From a virus, in the IMG/VR virus record IMGVR_UViG_3300046535_000869, positions 1 to 64,000 of that record: DNA of 64,000 nucleotides. The stretch is one strand, 5' to 3'. The notes below the pieces were generated by a model, which ran no database searches, was not told the DNA's origin, and was given only the letters and a program-made list of their open reading frames with translations. The stretch's first letter is position 1. The number at the start of each line of letters is the position of its first letter. Below, in pieces: positions 24,279-49,773 of this stretch. A program made the position numbers and the translations under genes.

Positions 24279-24279
24279 C

Positions 24280-26557: not shown

Positions 26558-27108
26558 TTGACCATCTCCGGCATGAAGGAACAGTAGAGCCAGTGGAACA
26601 TCATCATCGCCACGTCCTCGGCGACCGCGTTGCTGTCGGTCTCCAGGTCGATGGTGATGTCCGCCTTCTCCGAGACCGGCCCGCGCTTGCCGACAACCGC
26701 CGCGACGTGCATATTCAGGAACTTCGCGCGCGCGACCGCCTTGGTCAGGTTGGCTGACTTCCCGGACCCGCTGAAGACCACCAGGAGGTCGCCCGGCTCG
26801 CCGAGGGTGTCGAGCTGGGCCGCGAACATATTGTCCGCGCCGAAGTCGTTGACCGCTGAGGACAGCATGAACCCGCTGTTCAAGGAGACCGCCCGCATGC
26901 CAGCGCCAGCCTCGCGCAGCACGTTCAGCGACAGGCCGAGCGCCAGGTGGTCAGTGACCGTGCCGCCGCCGCCGTTGGCCGCTGTGTAGATGGTCCCGCC
27001 ATTGTCGTTGACCCGCTGCACCAGGAGCCGGAGCGCTTCGGCCCGCTCGAACGGGAGCTTCGCCGCCTTCTGGGCAACCGCGTCGACGTACGACCAGCAC
27101 GTCTTCAC
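26554..27108 (-). CDS. SIS-domain sugar-phosphate isomerase (GmhA-like)
   Basis: IYTAANGGG, VNDFG, GDLLVVFSGSGKSANL, AED. Confidence 0.85.
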   Translation of the reverse strand: MKTCWSYVDAVAQKAAKLPFERAEALRLLVQRVNDNGGTIYTAANGGGGTVTDHLALGLSLNVLREAGAGMRAVSLNSGFMLSSAVNDFGADNMFAAQLDTLGEPGDLLVVFSGSGKSANLTKAVARAKFLNMHVAAVVGKRGPVSEKADITIDLETDSNAVAEDVAMMMFHWLYCSFMPEMVK

Positions 27109-27662
27109 GGCTTCCTCCAGGCCCCGATGCCGCCCCAGTCGCCCCTGACGGTCCACTCCAGCTTCTCGCCAGCCAGGCCCGCCCAGTACGCCGGGACGCC
27201 GCCCTTCTCCCAGACCTCGAACGCGCTCGCCGCCGCGTTGATGTCGTGGAAGACGATCCAGCCGCCGGACCGTACCAGCTTCCCGTAGTCGTCCACGTCC
27301 GCCGTGACGCCGTCGAGGCTGTGGTCGCCGTCGATGAACAGCATGTCAACCGGGTCGCCATCGAGCTGCTCGACCACCTTGAGCCAGGTCGCCTTGTGAT
27401 GGCTGTCGCCGGAGATACAGATGACGCCGACCAGGGCCGCGTTCCGCTTGGCGGTCTGGGCCTGGTTCATCCCGGTCGTCGAGCCTTCGATCTTGTCGAC
27501 CGTCACGGTCTTCCCGGACGCGATATTCGACAGGAGCTGCGTGACGCCGCCAGGCCCGGTCCCAATCTCCAGGATGGTCTTCGGCTTGACCTCCTCGGCC
27601 AGCCAGCGCGAGAACGGCTGGATCTCGTCCGGCCATTGGAGCATCGGCAGGGTGACCTTCAT
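27105..27662 (-). CDS. Class I SAM methyltransferase (Methyltransf_24-like)
   Basis: ILEIGT, LFIDGDHS, GGWIVFHDI. Confidence 0.9.
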   Translation of the reverse strand: MKVTLPMLQWPDEIQPFSRWLAEEVKPKTILEIGTGPGGVTQLLSNIASGKTVTVDKIEGSTTGMNQAQTAKRNAALVGVICISGDSHHKATWLKVVEQLDGDPVDMLFIDGDHSLDGVTADVDDYGKLVRSGGWIVFHDINAAASAFEVWEKGGVPAYWAGLAGEKLEWTVRGDWGGIGAWRKP

Positions 27663-28357
27663 GGCTTCACCGTCCGACGCTCAGCGTCCGACCAGGGAGC
27701 CAGCCGCCCGTCGCGAATCGGAGCCAGGGTCAGCTCAGGGTAGACCGCCTCCGGGAGGTTGAACGCCAGCATCCCGCCGGTCCCTGTGCCTGGATGGATA
27801 CTGTCGTACCTGGCCGCGACCGCCGCCCGCTCGGCCCGCGACTTGACGAGGAACTTGTGGTGCTCGATGAGGACCGGCGCTTCAGAGCCGCCGCCGAACG
27901 GCGATCCACAATGGATGCTCGTCCGCCCGCCCGCCATCGCCTTCACGCTCAGGCGCGTCTGGTGGTCCGGGAATAGCTGCGGCGACAGGATGACCCAGCC
28001 AGGCGTCTGCCAGAGGCTCGCGCGGGCGAACTTCCAGTGGTCTGCCGCGAAGTAGCGCTCCTCCGCCAGCCAGTCCGCCATCGCAGGCGAGGCTTTCTCG
28101 TCGTCGTCTAGCCGCAGGATGTACTTGCCGGAGCACTCCGCGACCGCGTAGTCGTGGACCGACTCCAGGTAGCCGTGTGACTGAACCGGGACGATCTTGC
28201 AGGGAAGCTGCCTGGCGAGGTCCTCGGCGTCTTGGCCGTCAGCCGCGATGACGAACTCAGCCCGGCAGCGCTCAGCCAGCGCCGACATGGCGCTGAGGAA
28301 CGGCCAGGCGTGTCGCTCGCCCTTGCTGACGCAGAGGATAGTGAGGTTCGGTTGCAT
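27659..28357 (-). CDS. GT2-like (GT-A) glycosyltransferase
   Basis: CSGKYILRLDDDE (DxD), PDHQTRL. Confidence 0.8.
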   Translation of the reverse strand: MQPNLTILCVSKGERHAWPFLSAMSALAERCRAEFVIAADGQDAEDLARQLPCKIVPVQSHGYLESVHDYAVAECSGKYILRLDDDEKASPAMADWLAEERYFAADHWKFARASLWQTPGWVILSPQLFPDHQTRLSVKAMAGGRTSIHCGSPFGGGSEAPVLIEHHKFLVKSRAERAAVAARYDSIHPGTGTGGMLAFNLPEAVYPELTLAPIRDGRLAPWSDAERRTVKP

Positions 28358-35707: not shown

Positions 35708-35736
35708 ATGATATGCTCAACGAATGAGCATGTCAA
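35708..35736 (-). promoter_or_regulatory. sigma70-type promoter with palindromic operator in the spacer
   Basis: TTGACA-17bp-TATCAT; ATGCTCA-N5-TGAGCAT at 35713..35731. Confidence 0.8.
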
Positions 35737-35766: not shown

Positions 35767-38700
35767 TTAGTCCAGGAGGGACAGGTCGCCGCCCGCCAGG
35801 AGGATCTTGTCCTCCAGCTCCCGCCGCTGCCGGTGAACCAGGAGGATGTCCAGCGTCCTGGCCCGGCCCGCCGCCAGGGAGCCGCCCTTCCCGACCGAGG
35901 CCCAGCTTCGCGACGCCTTCGCCTGCCCGCCCGCGACGATGCCGCCTTTCGTGGTCACGCTGGCGAACGCGCGCGCGCTGACCGCCTTCCCGGTGCTGGT
36001 CGCCCCGCCGCGCCCGATGATCGCGAAGGACCAGGACATCGACGTCGGAGCCGACCCAGCCGAGACGCCGCCGCCCGATCCGACGTAGCCGTAGGTTACC
36101 GGCTTGGGCTTCGGCGGGATGGCAAGGTTGCCGCCTTCCCACTCGACGAACGCGCCGCCGATCCAGCGCCCGCGCTCCGGCATGAGCGCGCCGCCGTCGG
36201 TCAGGACGCCCGCTGTCAGGACTTTGGGCTTGCGCCGCGCGTGCCGCCCGAAGGTCGGGTAGCCGTTCCCGGACCCGTACGCGCCGCCGGTCCCGACGTA
36301 GTCGAACTCCACCGAGGATGACGGGCTGGCGCTGACGGAGGACGACGGAGAGACCGAGGCCGACGGCGAGCGCGACGCCGAGGGGCTGACAGACGGCGAG
36401 GCCGAGGCGCTCGGCGACCTGGAAGCGCTGGGCGAGACCGATGGACTCTGTGAGGCGCTGGGCGACCGGGACGGCGACGCCGACGCGCTGGCGCTACTCG
36501 ACGGGCTGACCGACGGACTGACCGAGGCGGACGGCGACTTCGACGCGGACGGGCTGACCGAGGGACTGGCGCTCGCCGACGGCGACGTGCTGGCCGAGGG
36601 GCTAACGCTGGGACTCGCGCTCGCGGACGGTGACCGGGAGGCGCTCGGCGAGACTGACGGACTCTGGCTGGCCGAGGGAGAGACCGACGCCGAAGGACTG
36701 ACAGACGCGCTCGCGCTCGCGGACGGCGAGACGCTGGCCGACGGCGACACGGACGGCGACTGGCTCGCGGACGGCGATGTGCTCGCCGAGGGAGAGACGC
36801 TCGGACTGGCGCTGGCGCTCGGCGACCTGGAGGCGGACGGGCTGACGCTAGGCGACGCCGACGCCGACGGTGAAATGCTCGGTGAGCCAGCCGACGGCGA
36901 CAGGGAACTCGACGGCGACAGGGAGCTGCTCGGAGAGACCGAGGCCGAAGCACTCGATGACGGGCTGACGCTGGCCGACGGAGAGACGGAGGCTGACGGG
37001 CTGACCGACGGCGATTGGCTCGCGGACGGACTGACCGACGGCGACTGCGAGGCTGAGGGGCTGACCGACGCGCTGGGCGAGACAGAGGCCGACGGCGACA
37101 CGGACGCGCTCGGCGAGACGCTGGCGCTGGGCGAGACGCTGGCTGACGGCGAGACCGAGGGACTGGCCGATGCGGACGGCGAGACCGAGGGACTCTCAGA
37201 CGCCGACGGGCTGACACTGGCGCTCGGACTGACCGAGGCCGATGGACTCACGGAAGCCGACGCGCTCGCGCTGGGACTGACACTCGCAGACGGCGAGATG
37301 CTCGGCGACTGGCTGGCCGACGGGCTAACCGAGGCCGATGGAGAGACGCTTGGCGACTCTGACGCGGACGGAGAAACCGAAGCACTCGGCGAGACCGAGG
37401 GGCTGGCGCTCGCGCTCGGACTGACCGACGCAGACGGCGACACGCTCGGCGACGCCGATGCGGACGGCGACACGGAGGCCGACGGGCTGACACTCGCCGA
37501 CGGACTGATGCTGGGCGACGCGCTCGCACTCGGCGACACGCTGGCCGATGGCGAGACCGACGGTGATTGCGAGGCGCTCGGTGAGACGCTGGCCGAAGGA
37601 CTGACCGACGCGCTCGGACTGACCGACGGAGACGCCGAGGCGCTGGGCGAGACGCTCGCGCTGGGGCTGACCGATGGACTCTGCGATGCGCTCGGCGAAA
37701 CCGACGCCGACGGAGAGACAGACGCAGAAGGCGAGACACTCGCGCTGGCCGAGGCCGACGGCGAGACGCTCGCGCTCGGCGAGACCGACGGCGACTGTGA
37801 CGCCGACGGGCTAACGCTCGCCGAAGGACTGACGCTCGGACTCTGACTGGCCGAGGGTGAGACGCTCGCGCTGGGCGACACGCTCGCGCTCGGACTGACC
37901 GACGGACTCGCTGACGCGCTCGGACTGACGCTCGGCGATTGTGAAGCAGACGGAGAGACCGACGCCGAGGGGCTAATGCTGGCGCTCGGCGAAATCGACG
38001 GAGACTGACTCGCGCTCGGCGAGACGCTTGGACTCTGCGATGCTGACGGGCTAACCGATGCGCTTGGCGAGACGCTCGCTGATGGCGAGACCGATGGCGA
38101 CGCCGACGCCGACGGCGAGACAGACGCGCTGGGGCTAACACTGGGTGACTGTGACGCGGACGGCGAGACGCTCGCGCTCGGAGACTTCGAGGCGCTGGGC
38201 GACACGCTCGGCGATTGCGAGGCAGACGGAGAGACCGACGGCGACTGACTCGCCGAGGGACTAACCGACGCCGACGGCGACACAGAAGCAGACGGACTGA
38301 CCGACGCCGACGGCGAGACCGACGGACTCGATGAGGCTGACGGGCTAACGCTCGGCGACTGCGAGGCTGAGGGGCTGACCGACGCGCTGGGCGAGACGCT
38401 GGCGCTGGGGCTGACAGACGGCGACGCCGACGCCGAGGGACTGACGCTCGCCGACGGCGAGATGCTGGGCGACTGTGAGGCCGATGGCGACACGCTGGCG
38501 GACGGCGACTTCGACGCCGACGGCGAGACAGACGGACTCTGTGACGCTGATGGACTAACGCTGGCCGACGGGCTGACGCTCGGCGACTGACTCGCGCTGG
38601 GGCTGACACTCGCGCTGGGCGACACGCTCGGAGAGGCCGACGCCGACGGCGAGACCGACGCAGACGGGCTAACCGATGGAGAGGCGCTCGCGCTTGGCGA

Positions 38701-39996
38701 GACGCTCGCCGACGGACTGATGCTCGGAGAAGCGCTGGCGCTTGGCGACTTCGACGCTGAAGGCGAGACCGACGGCGACGCGCTCGCTGAGGGAGAGACC
38801 GACGCGGACGGGCTGACAGAGGCACTCGCTGACGCCGACGGAGAGACGCTCGGCGACTCGGCCTTGTTGAACGCCGTGACCTCGGTCGTGTTCAGGATCG
38901 CGACAGCCGCCTGCACGTCCACCGTCTCGATGGCGTGGCTGAGCGACGCCGACGGACTCACGCTCGCCGACGGTGACTTCGAGGCGCTCGGACTGACGCT
39001 CGCGCTGGGCGACTTCGACGGCGACGATGACGCCGACGGCGAGACGCTTGGACTCTGCGAGGCGGACGGTGAGACGGACGCGCTCGGCGAAACGCTGGCG
39101 CTTGGAGACTTCGAGGCCGACGGGCTGACGCTCGCACTCGGAGAGACACTCGGACTTTGTGAGGCCGATGGGCTGACAGATGGCGACTGGCTGGCGCTGG
39201 GGCTGACCGACGCGCTTGGACTGACGCTCGCCGAAGGGCTGACCGACGCTGAAGGCGAGACCGACGCCGACGGCGATAGCGACGATGACCCGGTACTGCT
39301 CTCGACCAGCGCGACGAAGATGTGGTTCGAGTCGCCAGTGATCGCCGTGACCGACGGGTTGCTCGTTTCCCCGGTCGACGTGTTGATCCTGAACTCCGAC
39401 CAGCAGCTCACCGCGTTCGCGTTGTTCCTCGACCGCGTCGTCGCGCCAGTCGTGAAGTTGGTCGAGACCGTCAGCGCGGTGCCGCTGCCGTTGGCTTCCT
39501 TGCCCAGCGCCGAGAAGTACAGGCGTGAGAGACTCGCCAAGCTGCTGAAGGCCGTCGAGCCGAAGCCCGCGTTCGCCGCGATGTTGTTGAACTGACTGGT
39601 CGCGCCATGCACCAGCGAGCTGCCCGCCGCGACCGTGAACTTCCAGCCGACCATGACCTTGTCGGAGCTGGACGGAGCAACCGTCGCCGTGAAGACCGTG
39701 CCGATGGCGTTCGTGCCAGACGAGACGAACCGCCAGAGCGACGTGCAGACGCCGTCCGAGGCCGCGCCGGTCGGGCTGTAGGTGTACTCCTCCAGCTTCG
39801 TCCATGTCCCGGTGCCGCCAGTGATGGACGTGTGGTCGTTCGTCGTGCCGGTCGTGGTCGAGTTGTTGTCGGTGGTGATGACGACGAGCGCGATGTCGCC
39901 TGACGCCGACAGGGCGTTCGTCGTCGTGGTCAGCGTGATCGCCGTCGCGCCGCTGACGCCGTTGACGCCGAGTGTGCCGACGGAGGTGATCGCCAT
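35767..39996 (-). CDS. Mucin/SRRP-like Ser-Pro repeat protein (putative glycosylated virion fibre)
   Basis: 1409 aa: ~230-aa beta-rich N-domain, ~1000 aa SPSAS(V/Q/A/K/R)/SPSV repeats, Gly-rich C-domain; no signal peptide. Confidence 0.85.
36311..39290 (-). repeat. Coding tandem repeat ([10 protein letters not shown] units)
   Basis: 12/18/30-nt periodicity with heavy synonymous variation. Confidence 0.95.
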
Positions 39997-39999
39997 CGG

Positions 40000-41787
40000 C
40001 TAGAACTGCTTGATGGCGATGCCTGACGGGAAGTCGACCTCAACGTCCGCGCCGGTCGTGACCAGCGTGAACGGGAAGAACGCGACCGGGACCGACTGCG
40101 TGTCGTCAGCGCTCACGTCCCGGTAGAGCACCATGCCGCCCAGCGTCTGCGCCGTCGTGACCGCCGGGAAGACCGGCGACGTGGCCGACAGCGTCGCGAG
40201 ATCGTTCGTGTCGTCCTCCGCGACGGAACGCCCGGCCATCGTCTGCCGCGTCACGCCTGCCGCCTCCTTGCTCGTCACGTCGCCCGCGCTGCCGTCGTCG
40301 AGCGTCTGAAGATCCGGGTCGAAGACGTACGTCGACAGGACCAGCGTCATCTTGAGTGTCGACGTGTCGAGGTCGAGCGTGCCGATGAGTAGCTCCTTCT
40401 TCGCCCGGTTGTAGAGGTACTGCGCGCTCGCGCCTGCCGGTTGGATCGGCCCAATCCATGCGTAGTTCGTGGCCGCGCCAAGCGTCGGCGGATTTGCCGC
40501 GCCCTTGAGGAGCGTGTTCGTCGGCGTGTAGTCTCCTGTCTCTCCAGTCGCACTCACGTACTGCGGGTCAACGGCGAGATCGTGTGCTCCGGCGCTGATC
40601 GCGCTATATCCGCCAGCCGTGTTGTTGTAGACGTTGTTGAAGTCCATCAAGTGTCCGCCATAGCGGTCATTCGTCGCTGTCGTTCCACCTGAAAGCAGGA
40701 GTCCGTACCCACCATTGTTCGTCAAATTGTTGTTGTTGACGATTGTTCCAGCAGCGGTTTGGACAGACAAAGCTGTATCAGCACAACTGTCGATGACGTT
40801 CCCTGTGATTATCGAGTTAAGCGCAATATCAGAACCTGACCCGGAGTGATCGTGGATAGCTGGCGAGGCTGCGCGACAACGGGTGATGACGTTACTGATG
40901 AACGCGCACCCTTTTGATGTGTCAAAGACAGGCCCACGATAGTTGTCGATGATGTTGCCGACTAACCGAGTAAAATAGAGACCTCCATACAGCGCGTAGT
41001 AGGTTCCGGCTGAAGTGCTTCCAGAATTACGGATGATGTTGTCTGTGAAGGAGACGATTCCAGCTACAAACGTCCCATCGAACCCGTTCTGGTCATAGAT
41101 GCAGCTATCAACGGAAGCGCCGCCGTTCCCTTGGATGAAGCCGTTGTCGGTAAGAAAATTCGTCCCGGTCGGGACCATCTTGAGTTCGCGGAAGATCCAG
41201 CCATTGGCCTGATAGAACATCAACCCATTACAGGTCAGGTAAGGACGCCCGTTGTAGCCGAGTACGGTAATCGGTGCCTCTAATGTTGACCCCAGTAGTT
41301 GGTTGTACCCCGTCTGTGCGACATCAGGCGTACTACCGAGGGCAGGATCGGTACTGCCTCCTGCCGCTCGGACGTTGACGATGTTACCAGCGATGAGAGG
41401 AGAGGCGAGCAGGGGAGCCGTGATCGTTCCGCCGATGGACACATTTCTGAAGTCGGCCCACGCGCCGCCGATGCGCGCCGACTGGCCGGTTCCGGTCCCG
41501 GTGTTTCGGTCGACGCCGATGGTGTTCGTGTTCGTGCGGCTGGTGATGACGTAGTAGCCGTCGCCAGCGATCCGAATCACGTTCCCGATCATCTGCGACG
41601 TGAAGCCGCCAGTGACGGACGTGACCGCGCCGGTCCCGACCGTGACGACGTCCGTCAGGCTGAGTTGTGGACTCGCCTGATCGGAGTAGTTCGTCCCGGC
41701 CCCGCTGATCGTGGAGTCGAAGCCTCCACCGTTCAGCTCGTCACCGTCGACGCGAATCCACCACTGTTGTGAGGCGAGGATCGACAT
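40000..41787 (-). CDS. Beta-helix-containing structural protein
   Basis: PbH1-like Asn-rich repeats (ITGNVID, IVNNNNLTNNGGYG, DFNNVYNN, VDPQY); C-terminal phage structural domain (LYNRAKKELL...LKMTLV). Confidence 0.7.
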   Translation of the reverse strand: MSILASQQWWIRVDGDELNGGGFDSTISGAGTNYSDQASPQLSLTDVVTVGTGAVTSVTGGFTSQMIGNVIRIAGDGYYVITSRTNTNTIGVDRNTGTGTGQSARIGGAWADFRNVSIGGTITAPLLASPLIAGNIVNVRAAGGSTDPALGSTPDVAQTGYNQLLGSTLEAPITVLGYNGRPYLTCNGLMFYQANGWIFRELKMVPTGTNFLTDNGFIQGNGGASVDSCIYDQNGFDGTFVAGIVSFTDNIIRNSGSTSAGTYYALYGGLYFTRLVGNIIDNYRGPVFDTSKGCAFISNVITRCRAASPAIHDHSGSGSDIALNSIITGNVIDSCADTALSVQTAAGTIVNNNNLTNNGGYGLLLSGGTTATNDRYGGHLMDFNNVYNNTAGGYSAISAGAHDLAVDPQYVSATGETGDYTPTNTLLKGAANPPTLGAATNYAWIGPIQPAGASAQYLYNRAKKELLIGTLDLDTSTLKMTLVLSTYVFDPDLQTLDDGSAGDVTSKEAAGVTRQTMAGRSVAEDDTNDLATLSATSPVFPAVTTAQTLGGMVLYRDVSADDTQSVPVAFFPFTLVTTGADVEVDFPSGIAIKQF

Positions 41788-41796: not shown

Positions 41797-43902
41797 TTAC
41801 TGCTTGACGAACGCCTGACAGTTGACGCCGGTCGTGTCTGGGCAGAGTCGGAACAGGTTCTGCGGAACGCCGTCAATCGCCTCCTGCTGAAACAGGCCCG
41901 GCAGCGTCGTGAAGGTGATGACCGGCGGAGGCGGAGGCGGAGGCGCGGTCCCGCCGTTCAGTGGAGACGTCCCGGTCCCATCCCAGAGCACGTCATCGTA
42001 GAGCTTCATCACGAACCGGCGAGGATGCGACCCGTACGGCAGAAACGTCACGCGAGCGAAAGCGGTGTTCGGAGGGAGCGTGATGGTCGGCGTCTCGACG
42101 TAGATATCGAAGAACACGCCGACGGCCCCTTGGACGATAGAATCGGAGACGAGATAGTCGCTATTCGGCACGCCCCAGAGCGCCGTCGTGCAGCCGGACA
42201 GGTACGCGCCTGTGATCTTAATCGGATGCACGTAGCCAGTCGTGATGTCGACACAGCGGCTTCCGTAGTACCGGTCGATGTAGCCCAGCGGCGCGCCATT
42301 ACCGAGGCTGCTCTGCTGGATCACTACAGGGTTACGGAACCAGCCTTCGTTGACGTCTTCCGCCTGACGTGCGCCGATGCCGATGAAGTCGTTGATGCTC
42401 CGCACGTTGTCGAGGACCGGGAGGTGGGCCTCGTCGAAGAAGCGGCCCGGATCTTCAATGCCCCACGTCTCGAAGCCGACGAATCCGTTGCCGACGCTGA
42501 GCGCATGGTCGACCAGTATCGGCGGGTTGTTGTTGGTGTAGGGAGGCGCGAACAGCACGTCCGGCATCGCCCCAGCGACCGACGGATACAGCCCGGACTT
42601 TCCATGAAAGCCGAACAGGTTCCAGCCGACCGTGTTGTTCCAGCATTCGTTCCCGTCGAAGGTGTTCTGGATGCCGTGAAACCAGCCGCACGCGCCCTCG
42701 ACGCCGGGTTTATTGTTCAGGAAGTTGACGCCCGCCTGAATCTCCGACACGTCGGAGAAGTTCGTGAGGTTGGCGAAGCCGATGTTTCTCAGGAAGCTGT
42801 TCCTGACTTCGTAGCCGTCCTCTGTGATGAAGCCCGCGCCTTGGAAGCCGGTCGCGATGTTCTCGACGACGAGCGTGTCCGAGGTGCCGTGCGTGACGTG
42901 GCCCCACTTCCCGCGCCCCTGCCCGATGAGGACCATGTCGACCGTCCGACGCTCGACCGCGCAGCCACCGCCGTGAACATGGTGCGCGTGAAAGGCGTAC
43001 TTCCCGATCTGGTTCGTCCCGATGTGCGATTGGTCCGCCGATGTCGAGTTGAGGTCGTCGACCGTTGTTCGACCGAGGCCGACGAGCGCGCCGCCTTGGA
43101 TGTCCCAGCAGGCCGTATCGCCGATATTGGCGACGTGACCGGCGGTCCCGTTCGCGTTCTCTGACCGGATGACGACGTTGCGCGTGACGTTGAGGATCTT
43201 CGGCCGGATGGCGAGCCGCCCATCGTGCGCGAAGACCGCCGCGTGCGCGAACGACAAACCGCGCGACAGGCCGATGCTCGTCCCGTTGACCGACGTGATG
43301 AACGTGGCAGGCTCGACGATGGGCGAGTCCGGGAAGACCGCCGGGTTCGTGCTGAGCAGCTTGACCTCGTCGCCGACGCGCCATCCGCTCGGCACGCCGC
43401 AGAGGGTGATGAACGAGCTGCCGGGCTGCGCGTCGAAGCACAAGTCCGCGCCCGGCGTCCGGTACGGTTCGTTGATCTTGATGGTGCCGAAGCTGGCGAT
43501 GCCGTTGCCCCACTGGAACGGATCTTGCCCAAGGTCAATCGGCACGTTGCGAATCTGGAGGTCGACGCGCACGCCAGCCGGAATCGGGTCGGCTGGTGTG
43601 CCGAGGTCGAGCGTCCCGCCCGGCAGGATGAGCAGCGTCGTGACCTTCGCTGAGGTATTCGCCGACCGGCTGACCTTCAGCGTCCCGCCGACCTCGATGT
43701 AGTCGAAGACACTGCCGTCCGGGAGCGTGACCGTCTGTCCGGCCGCGACGATGAGCTGCGCCGGGAGGTCGGTGCGCCGCTTGACGAACTCCGACGCGCC
43801 GATGGTGACGCGGTCCGGCTGGACTGTCGCCATGATCATCTGGGCTGAGGCCGTCGAGGCGATGAACAGCGACGCAAGCAGGAAGCGGAATGTCTTACGC
43901 AT
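41797..43902 (-). CDS. Signal-peptide-bearing G8-domain/beta-helix protein (TMEM2/CEMIP/fibrocystin-like architecture)
   Basis: MRKTFRFLLASLFIASTASA; GGTLDLGTPADPI, GWRVGDEV, NVTRNVVIRS, GKYAFHAH, HGTS, FITEDGYE. Confidence 0.8.
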   Translation of the reverse strand: MRKTFRFLLASLFIASTASAQMIMATVQPDRVTIGASEFVKRRTDLPAQLIVAAGQTVTLPDGSVFDYIEVGGTLKVSRSANTSAKVTTLLILPGGTLDLGTPADPIPAGVRVDLQIRNVPIDLGQDPFQWGNGIASFGTIKINEPYRTPGADLCFDAQPGSSFITLCGVPSGWRVGDEVKLLSTNPAVFPDSPIVEPATFITSVNGTSIGLSRGLSFAHAAVFAHDGRLAIRPKILNVTRNVVIRSENANGTAGHVANIGDTACWDIQGGALVGLGRTTVDDLNSTSADQSHIGTNQIGKYAFHAHHVHGGGCAVERRTVDMVLIGQGRGKWGHVTHGTSDTLVVENIATGFQGAGFITEDGYEVRNSFLRNIGFANLTNFSDVSEIQAGVNFLNNKPGVEGACGWFHGIQNTFDGNECWNNTVGWNLFGFHGKSGLYPSVAGAMPDVLFAPPYTNNNPPILVDHALSVGNGFVGFETWGIEDPGRFFDEAHLPVLDNVRSINDFIGIGARQAEDVNEGWFRNPVVIQQSSLGNGAPLGYIDRYYGSRCVDITTGYVHPIKITGAYLSGCTTALWGVPNSDYLVSDSIVQGAVGVFFDIYVETPTITLPPNTAFARVTFLPYGSHPRRFVMKLYDDVLWDGTGTSPLNGGTAPPPPPPPVITFTTLPGLFQQEAIDGVPQNLFRLCPDTTGVNCQAFVKQ

Positions 43903-44611
43903 AAGTGTTCTCCTTGAGGAACTCGTCAAACCGTCCGGCGGTCTGGCCCCAGCCCGGCACGCTGTCGGACTCGGTCCAGCCGTCGGTGTACTTCTGGTTG
44001 CGAAACTCGTCCTTCGACCAGCGCGAAGGCGTCAGGTTCTTGTCGTGTCGGATGTCGATGTTCGGGAGCGCCGACATGCACGCGATGACGTCCAGGTCGT
44101 CGATGCCGCCGTGTCGGATCTTCCGCGTGCCAGGCTCGTAGCCCATACGCTGGGTGAAGCCCTCGCGCTCGACGCGCAGGCAGCGCTGGCGGTAGTGCTC
44201 AGCCAGGAGCAGCCGGTTCGCAAAGAGGCCGCTGGTCTGGTTGCAGAAGTAGAACAGGGCCTTCCCGGAGGCCGCGTCGACCTTCCAGACGTTCTGGTTG
44301 TAGTAGTAGGCGTCGTGACGCCGGACGGACAGGTCGAAGTGGCTGTCGTGATACAGCACGTCGTGCTCGACGAGGAACGCCACGTCGGTGGATATCATCA
44401 GCAGCCCGGCCATGATCTGCTGGAACATCGTGAGCTGGCCAGGCCGCGCGTTCAGGACGACGTTCTTCCAGCCGGTCGGCAGATCGGTCCGCTCCAGCGT
44501 GACCGCGACGATGGGCCGATGGCCGCGCGCCTCGTCGAGCCGACGACGAACCGCCTCCAGGATGGCCGGGTTGCCGCGACCGTGCGAGTAGTACACCAGG
44601 CCGGACGTCAC
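43895..44611 (-). CDS. GT-A-like glycosyltransferase
   Basis: TMFQQIMAGL...VAFLVEHDVLYH (DxD-like), NIDIRH. Confidence 0.65.
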   Translation of the reverse strand: MTSGLVYYSHGRGNPAILEAVRRRLDEARGHRPIVAVTLERTDLPTGWKNVVLNARPGQLTMFQQIMAGLLMISTDVAFLVEHDVLYHDSHFDLSVRRHDAYYYNQNVWKVDAASGKALFYFCNQTSGLFANRLLLAEHYRQRCLRVEREGFTQRMGYEPGTRKIRHGGIDDLDVIACMSALPNIDIRHDKNLTPSRWSKDEFRNQKYTDGWTESDSVPGWGQTAGRFDEFLKENTYA

Positions 44612-45597
44612 GCGACACGCTCCTCGGCTGGGTAGATGAACTCACGGCCCGCCGTGAGCACGGTGTCGAGCGCCGCCTGGCCGACCGGCTCGTGCCAGCC
44701 AGGGATGGGTGCGAACTTCGCAATCAGCCAGGCCAGCGGGAGCCGCTGACCGGCCCAGGCGTTCGTCATCCACAGATGGCGCGAGTAGGCCCGCGCCACG
44801 TCCGGCTGGTTGCCTAGCGGGTATGGGAAGCTGAAGCCGTGCTGGGTCCTGAACAGGTGCGAGTACCAGGTCGACCGGTTGACGACGTGCCGCCCGCCAG
44901 ACAGCCAGCTCTTGCAGGCGATCTCGACGCCGTACTGGCCCCAGCTCCCATGCCGGTTGTCCAGACCGCCGAGCGCGTTGAACCGCGCGCGCTCCATGAA
45001 GAAACACGCCCCTATCGAGGACATCACATCCTGGATCTGGTTGTTATCGCAGCGGGTCTTGTACGCGCCCCAGTACTGGAAGTGGAGGTCGTGGTCGAAC
45101 CGCCAGAAGTCCGTCCGCCGGTTGCCCCGCTTCTGCCAGACCATCACCTTGTCGAAGCCGAGCGTCGACAGGCAGCTCGCGCACTTGTCCAGCGCCGGAC
45201 CCTGGTAGGTCCTGGCCTGGCACGACCGGCACTGCCAGTCGAAGACGTGCAGGTTGAACATCCGAGGAATCTGGGTGACATCCGGGCCGAGCGCCTCCGC
45301 CGCCTCGATGAGCTTCACGTCGAAGCCCTCATCGACGCCGCAATGTGCGTCCAGCTTCATCACATACTTGGCCCGCGACAGCCGAGCGCCCAGGTTGGTC
45401 GCCTCCCGCTGGCCGACCGCCGCGCCAGGCTGCACCACGGTCACGCGAGGATGCGTGTCCAGGGCCTCGACCGGCCAGCCGCCATCGCAGACCGCGATGA
45501 CCTCCGTGGCCGCGCGCGCGTGCGCGAGGATGTCCTCGACCGTGTTCTTGAGGAACGGCTCGTTCCGCGCCGGGATGATGACGCTCAGGTCTAGCAC
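44608..45597 (-). CDS. Polypeptide GalNAc-transferase-like (GT2/GT27-like) glycosyltransferase
   Basis: LSVIIPARNE, MKLDAHC (DxH), GACFFM.R.RF..LGGLD..HGSWGQYGVEIACKSWLSGG...SHLFR; GTG start. Confidence 0.85.
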   Translation of the reverse strand: MLDLSVIIPARNEPFLKNTVEDILAHARAATEVIAVCDGGWPVEALDTHPRVTVVQPGAAVGQREATNLGARLSRAKYVMKLDAHCGVDEGFDVKLIEAAEALGPDVTQIPRMFNLHVFDWQCRSCQARTYQGPALDKCASCLSTLGFDKVMVWQKRGNRRTDFWRFDHDLHFQYWGAYKTRCDNNQIQDVMSSIGACFFMERARFNALGGLDNRHGSWGQYGVEIACKSWLSGGRHVVNRSTWYSHLFRTQHGFSFPYPLGNQPDVARAYSRHLWMTNAWAGQRLPLAWLIAKFAPIPGWHEPVGQAALDTVLTAGREFIYPAEERVA

Positions 45598-45863
45598 GGC
45601 CCGGCCCCCCGCCAGCTCGCCGAGCACTTCCAGCCGGTGCTGTGCATCCTGAACGCCTCGACGACCAGCGGGCCGATCTTCATCCAGACGAACGTGCGGT
45701 CCCGGTAGTACTCGAACCAGCCCCAGTCTTCCGGCCGAATGTAGATCGGGCCGACCCGAACGTCGACGCATAGCCCGCAGGAGTAGCCCTCGCCGTGGCC
45801 TTGTGGGCAGGTTGATGCCTTCGATGGCATCGTATCGCCGGTTTTTGATGCGTCTCGTAGCAT
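45591..45863 (-). CDS. Hypothetical protein
   Basis: TGATG-coupled ORF, Trp/Cys-rich. Confidence 0.45.
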   Translation of the reverse strand: MLRDASKTGDTMPSKASTCPQGHGEGYSCGLCVDVRVGPIYIRPEDWGWFEYYRDRTFVWMKIGPLVVEAFRMHSTGWKCSASWRGAGPC

Positions 45864-46588
45864 CAGCGTCCCACGTCCAGCGGTCCCGGAGCGTTGACCC
45901 AGAGGAAGGACCGATGCTCGTCCCGCTCGACGCCGACCGCCCCGTCCTTCGCTCCGAGGATGAACCACGGTTTGATGTCGTACGCCCGCGTGAAGGCGTC
46001 GACGACGAGCTGCACATGCAGCCCCGCGCCAGGCTTGCTGCCGTAGTAGTCGTGGCCCGCGATGATGCCGCCGAACCGGACCTTCCGCGACCACTCGACG
46101 ATGTCGTTCGTGACGTTCTGGAAGTTGTGATGCCCGTCGATGTAGACGAAGTCCAGCGACCGGTCCGGCACGCCGCGCACCGCCTCCATGCTCCGGGAGA
46201 CCGCCAGCGCCGCGTACTTGTAGGGAGCCAGCCGCTTGGAGGCCAGCCGGTGATAGTTGTCGAAGACCGTCTGGTTCCGCTTCTGGTCCCGGTAGTCGTC
46301 CCGGAGGTTGTACGGATCGACGCCTGTGTAGTGGAGCTGTGGGTTTGCCGCCAGGAGCACCTCGGCGAACTCGCCCTCCATGACGCCGATCTCGACGCCC
46401 CGGTTGAAGTTGTATCGCCAGAAGAACCTCGCCAGCTCCTTCCGGGTCGATGGGATGACGACCGGGTGCCTGGCGTCCGGCGGACCGTCGCCGTCTCGGC
46501 CCAGCGCCGGGAGGCGGAAGAACTCGGCGAGCTGGTCGAGCGTCTCCGCCTGGGCCGTCGCAGGTCTATTGTCCACTGCTGAGGTCAT
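45863..46588 (-). CDS. Class I SAM methyltransferase (Methyltransf_24-like)
   Basis: GVEIGVMEG, LDFVYIDGHH, GGIIAGHDY. Confidence 0.9.
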   Translation of the reverse strand: MTSAVDNRPATAQAETLDQLAEFFRLPALGRDGDGPPDARHPVVIPSTRKELARFFWRYNFNRGVEIGVMEGEFAEVLLAANPQLHYTGVDPYNLRDDYRDQKRNQTVFDNYHRLASKRLAPYKYAALAVSRSMEAVRGVPDRSLDFVYIDGHHNFQNVTNDIVEWSRKVRFGGIIAGHDYYGSKPGAGLHVQLVVDAFTRAYDIKPWFILGAKDGAVGVERDEHRSFLWVNAPGPLDVGR

Positions 46589-47442
46589 AGCACCCTTTCC
46601 CAGAAGCCTCGGCAGATGCGAGGCCAGTTGAACCGCGCCGCCCCTTCGTCAATCTCTGCCTGGCTGACCGGAACCGGCTTCCGGCTCAGGGTGTCCTGGA
46701 GCCAGTCGGTCACCTCTGGCCGGGACAGCTCCGGGACGAAGATGGCCAGCCCGTCGTACCAGGTGCGGTAGTGTGGCCGGTTGAACACAATCGGCCTGGC
46801 CCCGCAGAGCAGGCCCTCCGCCGCCGGTAGCTCGAAGCCCTCGACCCGACGCAGCCCCGACACGTACTCGGCCGAGCTGTACAGCCCAGCTACTACCTCG
46901 TCGGAGACATCAGTATGGCAGACTACGCCGCTCCGGCGAAGGTTCGGACCGAGATGTGCTACGGTTTTCCCATTTGCCCAGGCTGCGCGCGCGCACTCCT
47001 TGACACTTTCTGTCAGCCAGGACTGGCCGGTCGTGACGATGCCGAAGGTCCGGTCCGTGCCTCGTGGGTAGAAGACCGCCGGGTCGACGCCCAGGGCCGA
47101 GTGATAGAACGGGAACTCGACCTGGAGCGCGTCTTCGAGGAGCAGCTCCTTGAGGTTGTAGTAGGACCAGACCAGCTTCGCCCCGGCCCAGAGGCGCAGC
47201 CAGGCGTCCGTCCTCGGCTTCTGGGTCGACCTCACGGCATACTGGATGACGGCGTACTTGCCGGTCTTCTTGATGAGGCCCGCCTGCTCGGTGAACTGCT
47301 CGACCCGCCCGTTGACGTGGAGGATGGTCAGCCGGGCCTGCTCAGGCCCGACCCAGGTGACGCAGCTCGGCGCGGAGCGCTTGAGCGCCTCGCTGACCCG
47401 TTTCATCGCCCGGTCGTCTGGTGTGACCATGTGGACCCGCAC
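46585..47442 (-). CDS. GT-B glycosyltransferase (paralog of 20350..21246)
   Basis: EGFELPAAEGLLCGARPI. Confidence 0.8.
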   Translation of the reverse strand: MRVHMVTPDDRAMKRVSEALKRSAPSCVTWVGPEQARLTILHVNGRVEQFTEQAGLIKKTGKYAVIQYAVRSTQKPRTDAWLRLWAGAKLVWSYYNLKELLLEDALQVEFPFYHSALGVDPAVFYPRGTDRTFGIVTTGQSWLTESVKECARAAWANGKTVAHLGPNLRRSGVVCHTDVSDEVVAGLYSSAEYVSGLRRVEGFELPAAEGLLCGARPIVFNRPHYRTWYDGLAIFVPELSRPEVTDWLQDTLSRKPVPVSQAEIDEGAARFNWPRICRGFWERVL

Positions 47443-48017
47443 TACCCGATCTCCGCGATAATGGCCGGGTTCCAGACCACGTTGCGCCGAGGCCAGGTCC
47501 AGGAATTCATAAAGTCGAAGTCGCCCTCGAACCGATGGCCGAACGTGCTCAGCCGATCCGGGATGTTCGGGACCAGCATCATCGGCGTCCCGACGTTGCC
47601 GTTCCGTAGGTCCTGGTCGGCCCAGAGGACCCGCCCATCCGCCCGGTAGCGCATGCGGAACAGGACCGGGAACAGCCGCCGCCGCCCGATGAGGCCCGCG
47701 ATGGCGTCCGCCTGGTGCGACCGATGGCCCTTGACGTAGGTGTCGTCGTCGTCCATGAACGCCAGCCAGCCGCCCCTCGCCTGCGGGAGCGCCGCGTTGC
47801 GCTCGGTGTGGCCCCAGTCGCCCGCCGGAGGCTTCCCGCGCGCGAGGAGGATCTCATCGCCAGGCCAGAGGTCGATGGACGCCAGGGTCGCCGCCAGGCT
47901 CTCCCGGCCGGTCGTCGCGACGATGAAGCTGATGCTGGTCGACCGGAGCGCCCGGTCGTCGGCCGTGATGCGCTCGACCACCACCTCGACGTCCTTGCCC
48001 TTCCGTGGCCCCTTCAT
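47442..48017 (-). CDS. Short GT2-like (GT-A) glycosyltransferase
   Basis: ISFIVATTGR, RNAAL..ARGGWLAFMDDDD, EGDFDF. Confidence 0.8.
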   Translation of the reverse strand: MKGPRKGKDVEVVVERITADDRALRSTSISFIVATTGRESLAATLASIDLWPGDEILLARGKPPAGDWGHTERNAALPQARGGWLAFMDDDDTYVKGHRSHQADAIAGLIGRRRLFPVLFRMRYRADGRVLWADQDLRNGNVGTPMMLVPNIPDRLSTFGHRFEGDFDFMNSWTWPRRNVVWNPAIIAEIG

Positions 48018-48127
48018 CGCGGCCCTCGGTAGACGACAAGGAGCAGGATGGCCGTCGTGACCGCCACGGCAATCGCGCCAGCCGCCAGCACGTACTTGAG
48101 GACGACCAGCCCTGTTGCCAGCGTCAC
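48014..48127 (-). CDS. 37-aa single-TM membrane peptide
   Basis: GTGA/ATGA coupling on both sides; MTLATGLVVLKYVLAAGAIAVAVTTAILLLVVYRGPR. Confidence 0.6.
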   Translation of the reverse strand: MTLATGLVVLKYVLAAGAIAVAVTTAILLLVVYRGPR

Positions 48128-49341
48128 AGGTAGCCCAACCTCAATGACTTGCGCTCCAGCGTGACCGCGACGCCCGGCTTGCCGTCGTGGTACGTGACCC
48201 AGAGCCGCTTCCGCTGGCCCGGATAGACAGGCCCGACGCCCAGGGCCTCGTTCGTGACCGTCAGGTCCAACCGAGCGCCATCTTTGACCGCCGCCCGGAC
48301 CACGTCCGCGACGTCGACCGTCTCCGCCTCCGACACGCCGTACCGCGCCGACAGGATGGTGAGGCCAGTAGGTTCTGGTGCTGCGCCGCCGGTAGGTTTT
48401 GCCGCCGACATCGCCGCCGCCGGAGTGTCGCCCAGGTAGCCGCGCGCGGCCCGGAACGCCTCGTCGAGGTCGGTCGGCCAGGATGGCACGCTTCCTGATT
48501 GCGCCGAGAACTTCTCAATCAGCCAGCGAAGGTCGTGAACCCGCCCGGCCCACTGGTCGAGCATCCAGTGCCGAACACACCACGCCGAGCCGAGCTTCAG
48601 CTCCCGCTTGTCGATGAAGTAGCCGCGCCCATGTTGCGGCCCCTTATGGAGATGCGCGTACCAGGTGCGCTTCGTGACCGCGACGTGTCCGCCGCCGAGC
48701 CACGTCTTGAGGCCCAGCTCCTGGAACTCCTGGATGAACGTCCCGTAGGTCGCCGGGTTGTCGTCCAGCCCGCCCAGCCAGTCGAAATGCCGCCGGTCCA
48801 TCACCCAGCACGAACCCTGGCTCGACATCTCGTCGTCGACCTCGTACGCCGGGTTGCCCAGCCGCGCCTTGATGCGCTCGTTCCAGATGGTGCCGTGCAG
48901 CCCGCACTTCGGGTCGTTCGGCCGCGCAAACGGGTAGCTCAGGTAGTGGTAGTCGACGTCCAGCTTGCCGACATCCTGGATGGCCCAGGCGTCCGCATCG
49001 AGCCGCTTGCGCCGAGGAACCAGGATGCTGTGGTCGTCCGGGAGGTCCCGCTGAACCTGCTCGTCGAAGCCAGGCGCGACCATACAATGGGCGTCCAGCT
49101 TCATCAGCACGTCCGCCGAGGCCATCGCCACGCCGTCGTTAATCCCGGCCCGCATGCCGCCCGCTGTGCCTTTATGGAGGACCTTGACGCGCGGGTCGGC
49201 CGGGAGGGGCGTCTCCGGCCAGTAGCCGTCGAGGACGGCGATGACCTCGATGTCACCAGTAGCCTTCTCCAGCAGATCCTGGACGGTACGGCCGAGGAAC
49301 TTCTCGCCGCGTGACGGGAGGATAATACTCAGCTTCGCCAT
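48124..49341 (-). CDS. Polypeptide GalNAc-transferase-like enzyme with C-terminal SUEL/DUF3395-like lectin domain
   Basis: LSIILPSRGE, MKLDAHC, GSCWVM, LGGLDD, ELGLKTWLGGG, WYAHLHK; C-terminal ILSARYG...DV...VTNEALG..VYPGQRKRLWVTY. Confidence 0.85.
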   Translation of the reverse strand: MAKLSIILPSRGEKFLGRTVQDLLEKATGDIEVIAVLDGYWPETPLPADPRVKVLHKGTAGGMRAGINDGVAMASADVLMKLDAHCMVAPGFDEQVQRDLPDDHSILVPRRKRLDADAWAIQDVGKLDVDYHYLSYPFARPNDPKCGLHGTIWNERIKARLGNPAYEVDDEMSSQGSCWVMDRRHFDWLGGLDDNPATYGTFIQEFQELGLKTWLGGGHVAVTKRTWYAHLHKGPQHGRGYFIDKRELKLGSAWCVRHWMLDQWAGRVHDLRWLIEKFSAQSGSVPSWPTDLDEAFRAARGYLGDTPAAAMSAAKPTGGAAPEPTGLTILSARYGVSEAETVDVADVVRAAVKDGARLDLTVTNEALGVGPVYPGQRKRLWVTYHDGKPGVAVTLERKSLRLGYL

Positions 49342-49368: not shown

Positions 49369-49773
49369 TTAGGGTTTGTTCTCGAAGCTGAAGGTCGGTG
49401 TGACCTTGACCTCGTCGTCTGTGTGCGCGATGTTGTACGGCCCATCGTCGAACCGCTCGACCCAGACCAGGTCGCCCGCCGCCGACGTGACGTAGTAGCC
49501 GTAGGCCGGTCCAGCCGCCCCGGTGAACAGGAAGCTCTGCCGCGCGTAGGTCGCCAGGCTCGGCTCGCCGACCGCGACGCCCCACGCGCCAGCCGGGAGC
49601 GTCTTCGCCGCGTAGCCGCCGCCCGCCATCTCGACCAGGTTATCCAGCCGCGTCGCGACCGACGGTGTGTAGTCGTTGGCGTACAGGTGCAGCGTGAACG
49701 GCGAGAGGCTCGACGTGTTCAAGATGGCGTTGAGGATGTCGGCCGATGCCGCCGACGGAATAACCAGCGTCAT
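49369..49773 (-). CDS. Putative virion structural protein
   Basis: LHLYAND.TP...E..GGGYAAKTL...YGYYV...VERF pattern seen in phage structural genes; coupled to portal. Confidence 0.6.
   Translation of the reverse strand: MTLVIPSAASADILNAILNTSSLSPFTLHLYANDYTPSVATRLDNLVEMAGGGYAAKTLPAGAWGVAVGEPSLATYARQSFLFTGAAGPAYGYYVTSAAGDLVWVERFDDGPYNIAHTDDEVKVTPTFSFENKP

What the first reader, a model, noticed from the sequence alone, without database searches (positions are those of the whole stretch)
35767..39996. Giant mucin/SRRP-like protein with Ser at nearly every second residue
Seen: globular beta-rich N-domain (~230 aa), ~990 aa of SPSAS[VQAKRE]/SPSV units, Gly/aromatic-rich C-domain, and no signal peptide or sortase motif. 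Inference: a tip-stalk-anchor fibre assembled in the cytoplasm; if glycosylated and extended it could span a few hundred nm, comparable to the tail implied by the 1526-aa tape measure.
Basis: partly seen in the sequence, partly recalled or inferred. Interest (0 to 1): 0.88.

Follow-up and report, generated by a model that had tools for sequence, protein, structure and literature searches.

The report
Phage mucin-like serine-repeat fibre protein
An uncultured soil phage encodes a real 1,409-residue protein with serine at every second position for about 990 residues, made in one operon with enzymes resembling those that start animal mucin sugar chains, so it is most likely a long sugar-coated fibre on the virus particle, a feature I found in no paper.

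Summary
ORF 35767-39996 (-) encodes 1409 aa: a folded all-beta N-domain (1-235), 990 aa of SPSAS[x]/SPS[V/I] units (49% Ser) and a Gly-rich C-domain (1226-1409). It has no signal peptide and no LPXTG. The repeat is not an assembly artefact: every 51-mer is unique, and 55 SPSASV units have 52 different DNA spellings.

New here:
- The N-domain belongs to a large unnamed phage family (674 clusters). It is absent from Pfam, PHROGs and 50,697 deposited phages. Extensions are hypervariable. The gene usually lies beside portal or head-tail adaptor genes.
- Usually a small partner gene lies directly upstream. Here it is a domain like the mycobacteriophage Bxb1 gp31 'tail wing arm', fused to a beta-helix protein.
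- The operon's GT2 (44608-46017) matches only polypeptide GalNAc-transferases among solved structures.
- GT2, methyltransferase, a 238-aa protein, this GT2 and an N-domain/SPS protein recur in two 41%-GC small-genome MAGs.
- SPSAS tracts also sit in two tail proteins.

Best reading: an O-glycosylated, mucin-like virion fibre with the N-domain as base. No sugar, virion presence or attachment site is shown. Earlier notes of this scan report the same class on other phage and CPR DNA. I rate it a new variant of a known kind.

The parts
35767..39996 (-). Serine-repeat fibre gene, 1409 aa
   Evidence: Open frame and translation. It starts 3 nt after the stop of the upstream gene, so the two are co-transcribed and coupled.
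39292..39996 (-). N-domain (res 1-235): conserved all-beta module, proposed base or anchor
   Evidence: AF2 pLDDT 93.6. 674 representative clusters at E<=1e-3 and 100 at E<=1e-30. No Pfam or PHROG match. BFVD fold matches to uncultured-phage proteins and actinophage 'minor tail proteins'.
36322..39291 (-). SPSAS[x]/SPS[V/I] repeat stalk (res 236-1225), proposed O-glycan acceptor
   Evidence: Composition, alternate-Ser register and unit counts. Degenerate DNA repeats.
38857..38943 (-). Non-repeat island (about res 352-380) inside the stalk
   Evidence: Seen in the translation. No second copy in the genome. Function unknown.
35770..36321 (-). C-domain (res 1226-1409): Gly-rich units plus a helix and an acidic/hydrophobic C-terminal tail, proposed distal end
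   Evidence: Single-sequence AF2 is poor (pLDDT 55) but gives a beta-hairpin plus a long helix at 70-90. No homologue found.
40000..41787 (-). 595-aa beta-helix protein with a C-terminal Bxb1-gp31-like 'wing arm' domain (res 454-590, nt 40018-40428), proposed adaptor for the fibre base
   Evidence: Beta_helix/NosD weak hits. phrog_644 E 9e-14. A profile of this domain plus two stand-alone homologues hits PDB 9D93 'Tail wing arm, gp31' at E 2.4e-8.
41797..43929 (-). 710-aa G8 + CEMIP-type beta-helix protein (glycanase-like)
   Evidence: PF24606 and PF10162 above their cut-offs. PDB 8c6i cell-surface hyaluronidase, E 9e-6.
43895..44611 (-). 238-aa protein of unknown family, conserved cassette member
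   Evidence: No Pfam match. 34-37% identical homologues in the same cassette in L031 and L032, E about 1e-39.
44608..46017 (-). GT2 glycosyltransferase resembling polypeptide GalNAc-transferases (candidate initiating enzyme)
   Evidence: PF00535. The only solved-structure sequence matches are GalNAc-T2/T9/T1/T4, E 5e-7, aligning LDAHC with LDSHC (DxH) and the Gal/GalNAc-T motif with its His. Orthologues lie directly upstream of the N-domain/SPS gene in L031 and L032 (42-44% id, E 1e-80).
45863..46588 (-). SAM methyltransferase (Methyltransf_24)
   Evidence: Homologues in the L031, L032 and L002 cassettes.
46585..47442 (-). 285-aa protein, paralogue of the GT1-like gene 20350-21273
   Evidence: BLASTP cluster. 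Glyco_trans_1_2 hit on the paralogue.
47442..48017 (-). 191-aa weak GT2-like protein
   Evidence: PF00535, E 0.0017, below the cut-off. Homologue in L002.
48124..49341 (-). Second GT2 glycosyltransferase
   Evidence: PF00535, E 1.5e-11. Paralogue of 44608-46017. 38-42% identical homologues in L031 and L032.
49770..52166 (-). Portal-MuF fusion, first structural gene of this co-oriented run
   Evidence: PF04860 and PF04233.
35708..35736 (-). Sigma-70-like promoter match just downstream of the fibre gene's stop
   Evidence: TTGACA-17-TATCAT, 11 of 12. Suggests the fibre gene ends its transcription unit. A consensus match only.
6321..6593 (-). SPSAS-type tract (res 80-170) in a 266-aa protein of the tail module
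5007..5096 (-). Short SPSAS tract (res 312-341) in the 1270-aa tail-module protein
19145..28357 (-). Second sugar island between the MCP and head-tail connector genes
   Evidence: GT1/GT4-like x2, radical SAM, MptE/DUF115 (Maf-like, below its cut-off), HAD, class-III aminotransferase, CTP_transf_3 + cupin, three methyltransferases and SIS.

Best explanation
The gene encodes a structural fibre of the phage particle that is made in the cytoplasm and O-glycosylated on its Ser-Pro-Ser repeat stalk by enzymes of the same operon. The polypeptide-GalNAc-transferase-like GT2 would add the first sugar to Ser. The other GT2, GT1 and Maf-like enzymes and the methyltransferases would extend and cap the chains. 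This would turn about 990 residues into a stiff, hydrated, mucin-like rod of roughly 250-350 nm. The conserved N-terminal beta-sandwich is the base. It joins the virion through the gp31-like 'arm' domain at the C-terminus of the upstream beta-helix protein. The unique Gly-rich C-domain is the free distal end. Shown: the architecture, the homologies and the conserved gene pairing. Inferred: glycosylation, virion incorporation, polarity and the attachment site. Gene order favours the head-neck region; the arm homology favours a tail-side appendage. The likely roles, a long-reach reversible adhesin and a protective glycan coat in soil, are speculation.
For: 1. The gene sits in a co-oriented, tightly packed run from portal-MuF to the fibre gene, upstream of the protease and MCP genes. 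It has no export signal.
2. GT2 44608-46017 matches only ppGalNAc-Ts among 177,635 PDB sequences (E 5e-7), with the DxH and Gal/GalNAc-T motifs aligned. Its orthologue in L031 does the same (E 2e-5).
3. The set GT2 + methyltransferase + 238-aa protein + GalNAc-T-like GT2 + N-domain/SPS protein recurs in L031 (2372-aa protein, 49% Ser) and L032, at 41-42% GC. Identities are 34-59%, and the GalNAc-T-like gene lies directly upstream of the acceptor.
4. The same SPSAS tract occurs in two proteins of the tail module and in no other protein of the 102-kb genome.
5. The N-domain family has 674 clusters. It is N-terminal in about 140 of the best 150, about 30 of 150 are stand-alone, and the extensions are hypervariable repeats or Ig-like domains. 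That is the pattern of a virion-binding base with a displayed extension.
6. Where neighbours were identified, the gene lies between portal and MCP (window, L007/L015, G003:C12) or just before the head-tail adaptor (L006, L022, L029). L016 fits the second pattern by gene order only.
7. In 9 of 18 loci the gene directly upstream, and in L006 the gene two upstream, belongs to one of three small families. One of them is homologous to the Bxb1 tail wing arm gp31, which is part of a solved virion (PMC12646305).
8. The peptide repeat is conserved while synonymous sites are scrambled, which shows selection on the protein.
Against: No sugar, no virion proteomics and no expression data exist. The N-domain has no solved homologue (best Z 6.5) and no detectable similarity to any known decoration or fibre-anchor family. 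Both MAGs that carry the closest N-domain/SPS relatives lack HK97-capsid and portal Pfam matches, and the flanking genes look cellular. The N-domain therefore need not bind a capsid. Gene position (head module) and the arm homology (tail tip in Bxb1) point to different attachment sites. None of 118 long N-domain representatives has a Ser-rich extension, and none of the 120 best Ser-repeat proteins has the N-domain. The two modules are therefore independently portable, and the pairing seen here is rare.
Confidence: 0.55

Rival explanations
1. It is a virion fibre, but the Ser-Pro stalk is an unglycosylated flexible tether, like polyserine or Pro/Thr linkers. The glycosyltransferase islands serve another target, such as DNA, host surface polysaccharide or other virion proteins.
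For: No glycan has been measured. Phage GTs often act on DNA or host antigens (review text in PMC12619734). Ser/Pro linkers exist without obligatory glycosylation.
Against: The GalNAc-T-like GT2 lies directly upstream of the N-domain/SPS gene in two very distant genomes, and its only solved relatives are protein-Ser/Thr transferases. A 990-residue linker with strict alternate Ser is hard to explain as a spacer alone.
Confidence: 0.15
2. It is not a virion part. It is a glycoprotein made during infection for the host cell surface or the extracellular matrix, for example superinfection exclusion, biofilm or mucilage interaction. It would be related to the cellular fibres of small-genome bacteria that carry the same cassette.
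For: The closest full-architecture relatives (L031, L032) lie in cellular-looking contexts, in genomes without HK97 capsid or portal matches. Earlier notes of this scan describe similar fibres in CPR bacteria.
Against: There is no signal peptide, TM segment or sortase motif, and the phage has no SecA-like gene. The gene lies inside the late structural run between portal and protease/MCP. N-domain genes in nine viral contexts sit among head and neck genes. The partner domain is homologous to a solved virion component.
Confidence: 0.12
3. It is an internal head protein, a scaffold-like or ejected protein packaged with the DNA, encoded as it is between portal-MuF and the prohead protease.
For: Position next to a MuF-fused portal and upstream of the protease. 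The C-terminal helix with an acidic/hydrophobic tail could be a capsid-targeting peptide.
Against: Family members carry Ig-like and other display-type extensions. The stalk is coupled to glycosyltransferases, and the upstream partner resembles an external tail appendage part. A 1409-aa mucin-like chain would take up much capsid volume.
Confidence: 0.05

Closest known systems
Serine-rich repeat glycoprotein adhesins of Gram-positive bacteria (GspB, Fap1, PsrP, SraP)
   Same: Hundreds of alternating-Ser dipeptide repeats form a long stalk beside a folded domain, encoded next to dedicated glycosyltransferases. SRRPs appear as composition-driven hits to the repeat.
   Different: No extended signal peptide, no LPXTG and no accessory Sec genes. 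The unit is SPSAS/SPSV rather than SAS[T/E/V]-type. The candidate initiating enzyme is GalNAc-T-like GT-A, not GtfA/B. The gene is phage-encoded within a structural operon.
Mycobacteriophage virion glycosylation (Che8 and relatives; Freeman et al. 2023, as summarised in PMC12619734 and PMC11256854)
   Same: Phage-encoded glycosyltransferases modify the phage's own structural proteins on Ser/Thr-rich tracts.
   Different: There the acceptors are short C-terminal tails of the capsid and tail-tube subunits. Here the MCP has no tract, and the main acceptor is a dedicated 990-residue stalk plus tracts in two tail-module proteins. The enzyme set is much larger.
Mycobacteriophage Bxb1 tail wing (gp30 base, gp31 arm, gp33 brush; PDB 9D93; PMC12646305, PMC13243192)
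   Same: A non-core side appendage built from an enzyme-bearing base, a small arm and a low-complexity distal part. The domain directly upstream of the fibre gene is homologous to gp31.
   Different: Neither the N-domain nor the C-domain resembles gp33. The enzyme domains are beta-helix and CEMIP-like, not a D-Ala-D-Ala carboxypeptidase. The genes lie in the head module, not after the tail tip genes.
Eukaryotic polypeptide GalNAc-transferases (CAZy GT27) and mucins
   Same: GT-A catalytic core with the DxH and Gal/GalNAc-T motifs, and a dense Ser/Pro acceptor.
   Different: No ricin-B lectin domain was detected. Identity is confined to about 70-110 residues. The donor sugar is unknown. The acceptor has almost no Thr (6 Thr against 492 Ser).
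Capsid decoration and head-fibre proteins (lambda gpD, SPP1 gp12, T4 Hoc, T5 pb10, phi29 gp8.5), from general knowledge
   Same: Gene position between portal and MCP or just after MCP. A conserved base with an optional displayed extension, and Ig-like extensions in some family members.
   Different: No sequence or fold similarity was found.

Membership tests
Gram-positive SRRP adhesins | Long alternating-serine repeat region | tested here: met
   49% Ser, with 389 of 495 alternate positions Ser. The unit differs (SPSAS/SPSV).
Gram-positive SRRP adhesins | Extended N-terminal signal peptide for accessory Sec export | tested here: not met
   The N-terminus MAITSVGT... runs straight into a folded beta domain, and the maximum KD19 is 1.18.
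Gram-positive SRRP adhesins | C-terminal LPXTG sortase anchor | tested here: not met
   No LPx[TSA]G anywhere in the protein.
Gram-positive SRRP adhesins | Linked SecA2/SecY2/Asp export genes | tested here: not met
   No SecA_DEAD match in the 102-kb genome. SecY2 and Asp were not searched separately.
Phage virion O-glycosylation (Che8 type) | Phage-encoded glycosyltransferases together with structural genes | tested here: met
   GT2 x2-3, GT1/GT4-like x2-3 and a Maf-like gene within the structural region.
Phage virion O-glycosylation (Che8 type) | Acceptor tails on the major capsid and tail tube subunits | tested here: not met
   Only three proteins carry SPS tracts, and the MCP (29050-30270) is not among them.
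Phage virion O-glycosylation (Che8 type) | Glycan demonstrated on virion proteins | not testable with these tools
   Needs mass spectrometry of virions or co-expressed protein.
GT27 polypeptide GalNAc-transferases (for GT2 44608-46017) | GT-A fold with a DxH metal motif and a Gal/GalNAc-T motif with a third His | tested here: met
   LDAHC aligns with LDSHC, and the W-G..E / H-x-F-R block aligns at E 5e-7.
GT27 polypeptide GalNAc-transferases (for GT2 44608-46017) | C-terminal ricin-B lectin domain | tested here: not met
   Pfam finds only Glycos_transf_2.
Bxb1-type tail wing | gp31-like arm protein | tested here: met
   The C-terminal domain of the upstream 595-aa protein matches phrog_644 at E 9e-14. 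A profile including it hits 9D93 gp31 at E 2.4e-8.
Bxb1-type tail wing | gp33-like Gly-rich brush protein | tested here: not met
   N-domain profile against gp33: hhalign probability 0.1%. C-domain against gp33: no alignment.
Bxb1-type tail wing | Carboxypeptidase-bearing base encoded after the tail tip genes | tested here: not met
   The upstream proteins are beta-helix and CEMIP-like. The locus lies between portal and protease.
Unnamed N-domain family of uncultured phages | About 232-aa N-terminal all-beta domain with the G-E-F-R-I[11 protein letters not shown] block | tested here: met
   Up to 62% identity and E 1.5e-60 to representatives. Alignment A1.
Capsid decoration / head-fibre proteins | Homology or fold match to a known decoration protein | tested here: inconclusive
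   No Pfam, PHROG or PDB match. Only gene position agrees.

The most novel reading that the evidence does not exclude
A mobile 'mucin module' is shared between soil phages and ultrasmall bacteria. It comprises two GT2 enzymes (one GalNAc-T-like), a methyltransferase, a 238-aa protein and an N-domain/Ser-Pro-Ser acceptor. In phages it builds a dedicated, several-hundred-nanometre glycoprotein fibre, docked to the particle through a two-part base (N-domain plus arm protein). This would be a virion organelle and a prokaryotic protein-glycosylation system not yet described.
Probability: 0.45. Interest if true: 0.85.

Novelty: new variant of a known kind. Interest (0 to 1): 0.72.

Why it matters
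If true, tailed phages of soil carry their own mucin-type O-glycosylation pathway and a dedicated giant acceptor. That is far beyond the short glycosylated tails known from mycobacteriophages. It would change how virion surfaces, adsorption range, desiccation and clay or mucilage interactions are thought about in soil. It would also supply bacterial-world relatives of the animal mucin-initiating enzymes together with a natural, repetitive substrate. The N-domain plus small partner cassette defines a large, entirely uncharacterised structural family (674 clusters, none in cultured phages). Its place on the particle is directly testable.

Tried and rejected
- Assembly artefact: rejected. No single independent contig spans the whole gene, and the short 'joints' have 20-22-nt sides and look like cross-matches.
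- RNA evidence: no RNA holder is listed.
- Close cultured relatives: blastn of the flank and tblastn of two N-domains against 50,697 phage records found nothing. MCP and portal find only relatives below 37% identity, so the host is unknown.
- N-domain fold: Foldseek PDB best E 0.028; VIA wide best Z 6.5; VIA second look best Z 5.7. All are generic beta-sandwiches. The PDB profile search found nothing. The Atlas returned only unnamed viral clusters.
- C-domain: no Pfam or PHROG match, no homologue among 8000 longer candidates, Atlas scores below 0.9, and a poor single-sequence model. There is no similarity among 150 family members.
- Tweety gp21 (296 aa) was a BFVD fold hit and lies two genes after a carboxypeptidase 'wing base' homologue. 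It shows no sequence similarity to the N-domain or to Bxb1 gp33, so it remains a lead only.
- The three small partner families were not shown to be related to one another.
- GT2 48124-49341 has no PDB sequence match.
- The search for related loci with alignment A1 failed for lack of a conserved stretch.
Neither the N-domain trimer nor N-domain/arm binding could be tested.
- The Freeman 2023 and 2025 papers are not held.
- Literature searches for SPS-repeat motifs, or for serine-rich plus O-glycosylation plus tail fibre in phages, found nothing relevant.
Full report
**Setting.** The window is the first 64 kb of a 102,082-bp IMG/VR virus record that CheckV rates as complete. GC is about 65%, rising to 72% over the repeat. 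Nearly all genes lie on the minus strand. Pfam and PHROGs give this order along the direction of transcription:
- portal-MuF fusion (49770-52166)
- GT2 (48124-49341)
- weak GT2-like (47442-48017)
- 285-aa protein
- methyltransferase (45863-46588)
- GT2 (44608-46017)
- 238-aa protein
- G8/CEMIP beta-helix protein (41797-43929)
- beta-helix protein (40000-41787)
- the finding (35767-39996)
- four small ORFs
- prohead protease-AAA+ fusion (30401-33481)
- HK97-type MCP (29050-30270)
- a second sugar island (19145-28357)
- head-tail connector
- 1526-aa tape measure (11237-15817)
- tail proteins

The phage has no close cultured relative. It occurs in rhizosphere and soil metagenomes.

- The ORF is open for 1409 aa.
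- Residues 1-235 fold as an all-beta domain (pLDDT 93.6).
- Residues 236-1225 are 49% Ser, with Ser at 79% of one alternate register. Of these residues, 94% parse as SPSAS[x] or SPS[V/I] units arranged in loose higher-order patterns.
- A 29-residue non-repeat island interrupts the stalk.
- The last 184 residues are Gly-rich, with an acidic/hydrophobic tail.
- There is no signal peptide, TM segment or LPXTG.

**The repeat is real and selected at the protein level.** TRF sees only 63-88% matching DNA units. The longest exact DNA repeat is 45 bp and every 51-mer is unique. The 55 SPSASV units are spelled in 52 different ways using all six Ser codons. Short-read assembly is therefore unambiguous. 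Contigs from three other samples reproduce pieces of the stalk colinearly.

**The N-domain is the conserved module.**
- An exhaustive HMMER search found 674 representative clusters, 100 of them at E<=1e-30.
- In about 140 of the best 150 the domain starts at residue 1-12, and about 30 are stand-alone proteins of 237-285 aa.
- The others carry very diverse extensions: Ala/Gly/Thr/Ser tandem repeats, Ig-like domains and W-x-G-x-x-W repeats. About a dozen of 150 end in an acidic run followed by hydrophobic residues, as here.
- The family has no Pfam or PHROG model, for any of 28 members tested.
- It has no member in 50,697 deposited phage genomes by tblastn, and no solved homologue.
- Predicted viral structures with the same fold include many uncultured-phage proteins and several actinophage 'minor tail proteins'.

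**Gene context of the family.** Where neighbours could be identified, the N-domain gene lies in one of three positions.
- Between portal and MCP: the window; L007/L015; G003 contig 12 with portal at 20.6 kb, N-domain at 24.6 kb and MCP at 28.7 kb.
- As the last gene before the head-tail adaptor: L006, L022 and L029. L016 fits by gene order only.
- After a tape-measure-like gene, in one locus (L011).

In 9 of 18 loci the gene directly upstream, and in L006 the gene two upstream, belongs to one of three small families of 120-140 aa. One of these, phrog_644, is homologous to Bxb1 gp31, the 'tail wing arm' of the solved Bxb1 tail tip (PDB 9D93). In the window this domain is fused to the C-terminus of the 595-aa beta-helix protein, whose stop lies 3 nt from the fibre gene's start. 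In Bxb1, gp31 and the 'brush' gp33 attach to the enzyme-bearing base gp30, and the assembly is dispensable (PMC12646305). Neither the N-domain nor the C-domain resembles gp33.

**Link to glycosylation.**
- GT2 44608-46017 matches only polypeptide GalNAc-transferases among all PDB sequences (E 5e-7). The DxH motif and the Gal/GalNAc-T motif are aligned.
- Two small-genome MAGs at 41-42% GC encode N-domain proteins 56-59% identical to this one over the N-domain, followed by SPS repeats. One is 2372 aa with 49% Ser.
- In both MAGs the gene directly upstream is the orthologue of this GT2 (42-44% identity, E about 1e-80).
- Further upstream lie orthologues of the 238-aa protein, the methyltransferase and the second GT2. 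The MAG orthologue also hits only GalNAc-transferases.
- This conserved five-gene set, across a 24-point GC gap, is the strongest evidence that the stalk is the enzymes' substrate.
- Within the phage, SPSAS tracts occur in only two other proteins, both in the tail module.
- The second island adds GT1-like enzymes, a Maf/DUF115-like protein, a cytidylyltransferase, an aminotransferase, SIS, HAD, radical SAM and three methyltransferases. These are consistent with an elaborate capped glycan.
- A distant N-domain relative (L002) and L007 also sit beside sugar genes.

**Modularity.** None of 118 long N-domain representatives has a Ser-rich extension. None of the 120 best Ser-repeat proteins has the N-domain. 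Those proteins carry Laminin_G_3, Collar, Phage-tail_3 or beta-helix domains instead. SPS stalks and the N-domain base are therefore separate, portable parts.

**Interpretation.** The best reading is a cytoplasmically made, O-glycosylated, mucin-like virion fibre with the N-domain as base, the arm-bearing beta-helix protein as adaptor, and the unique C-domain as free end. I put this at about 0.55 overall. The attachment site is open. Gene order favours the head-neck region, adjacent to portal or adaptor genes. The arm homology and the actinophage fold matches favour a tail-side appendage. Full extension would give about 250-350 nm, against about 229 nm for the tail. That is arithmetic, not a measurement. 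The cellular-looking context of the MAG relatives, which lack capsid and portal matches, is the main caution.

**Earlier notes and novelty.** Earlier notes of this scan report the same class, Ser-repeat fibres beside GalNAc-T-like cassettes, in other phages and in CPR bacteria. I used them as leads and tested the enzyme resemblance and the pairing here. I found no paper describing it.

Noticed in passing
window 30401-33481 (-): One 1026-aa ORF joins an HK97-type prohead protease (Peptidase_S78) to a classical AAA ATPase domain (PF00004, E 3e-19). A homologue of the protease part is in L021.
   Followed up: partly
window 44608-46017 / 45863-46588 (-): The listed start of the GalNAc-T-like GT2 overlaps the upstream methyltransferase by 155 nt. 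Homology to the 352-aa orthologues begins near residue 132-143, so the true start is probably internal.
   Followed up: no
L031 2683-9801 (-) (G002:C1, 0.94-Mb MAG chromosome): A 2372-aa protein made of the same N-domain, about 2050 residues of SPS repeats (49% Ser) and a short different C-domain. It follows a 12-gene sugar cluster, in a genome with no HK97 capsid or portal match.
   Followed up: partly
L011 3074-3481 (-), L012 5062-5448 (-), L014 1596-1970 (+): A second small family (phrog_3758, 'virion structural protein') lies directly upstream of N-domain genes. It matches a PDB chain listed as 44nx_B 'Structural protein' (E 7.5e-7), which I could not identify.
   Followed up: partly
L007 7952-9322 (+): A MptE/DUF115 (Maf-like) plus methyltransferase fusion is encoded just after the MCP, in a phage that also carries an N-domain protein.
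   Followed up: no
L002 7109-10048 (+): A distant N-domain relative (30% id over 126 aa) with about 700 residues of Ala/Thr/Gly repeats. It is flanked by a methyltransferase, epimerase, GT2, apiosidase-like hydrolase, connector-like protein and a GT1-like enzyme.
   Followed up: partly
family members P0016, P0030, P0031, P0041, P0070, P0081, P0113, P0119, P0131, P0143: Unrelated C-terminal extensions end in the same kind of short motif, an acidic run followed by L/I/M-rich residues, as does the window protein. It may be a shared docking peptide.
   Followed up: no
L013 4495-6177 (-) and 6901-8364 (-): BLASTP clustering groups two proteins in this one viral contig with the N-domain family; the N-domain profile search recovered only the second.
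   Followed up: no
window 35708-35736 (-): A near-consensus sigma-70-type promoter match (11 of 12) lies just after the fibre gene's stop, ahead of the small ORFs, protease and MCP.
   Followed up: no
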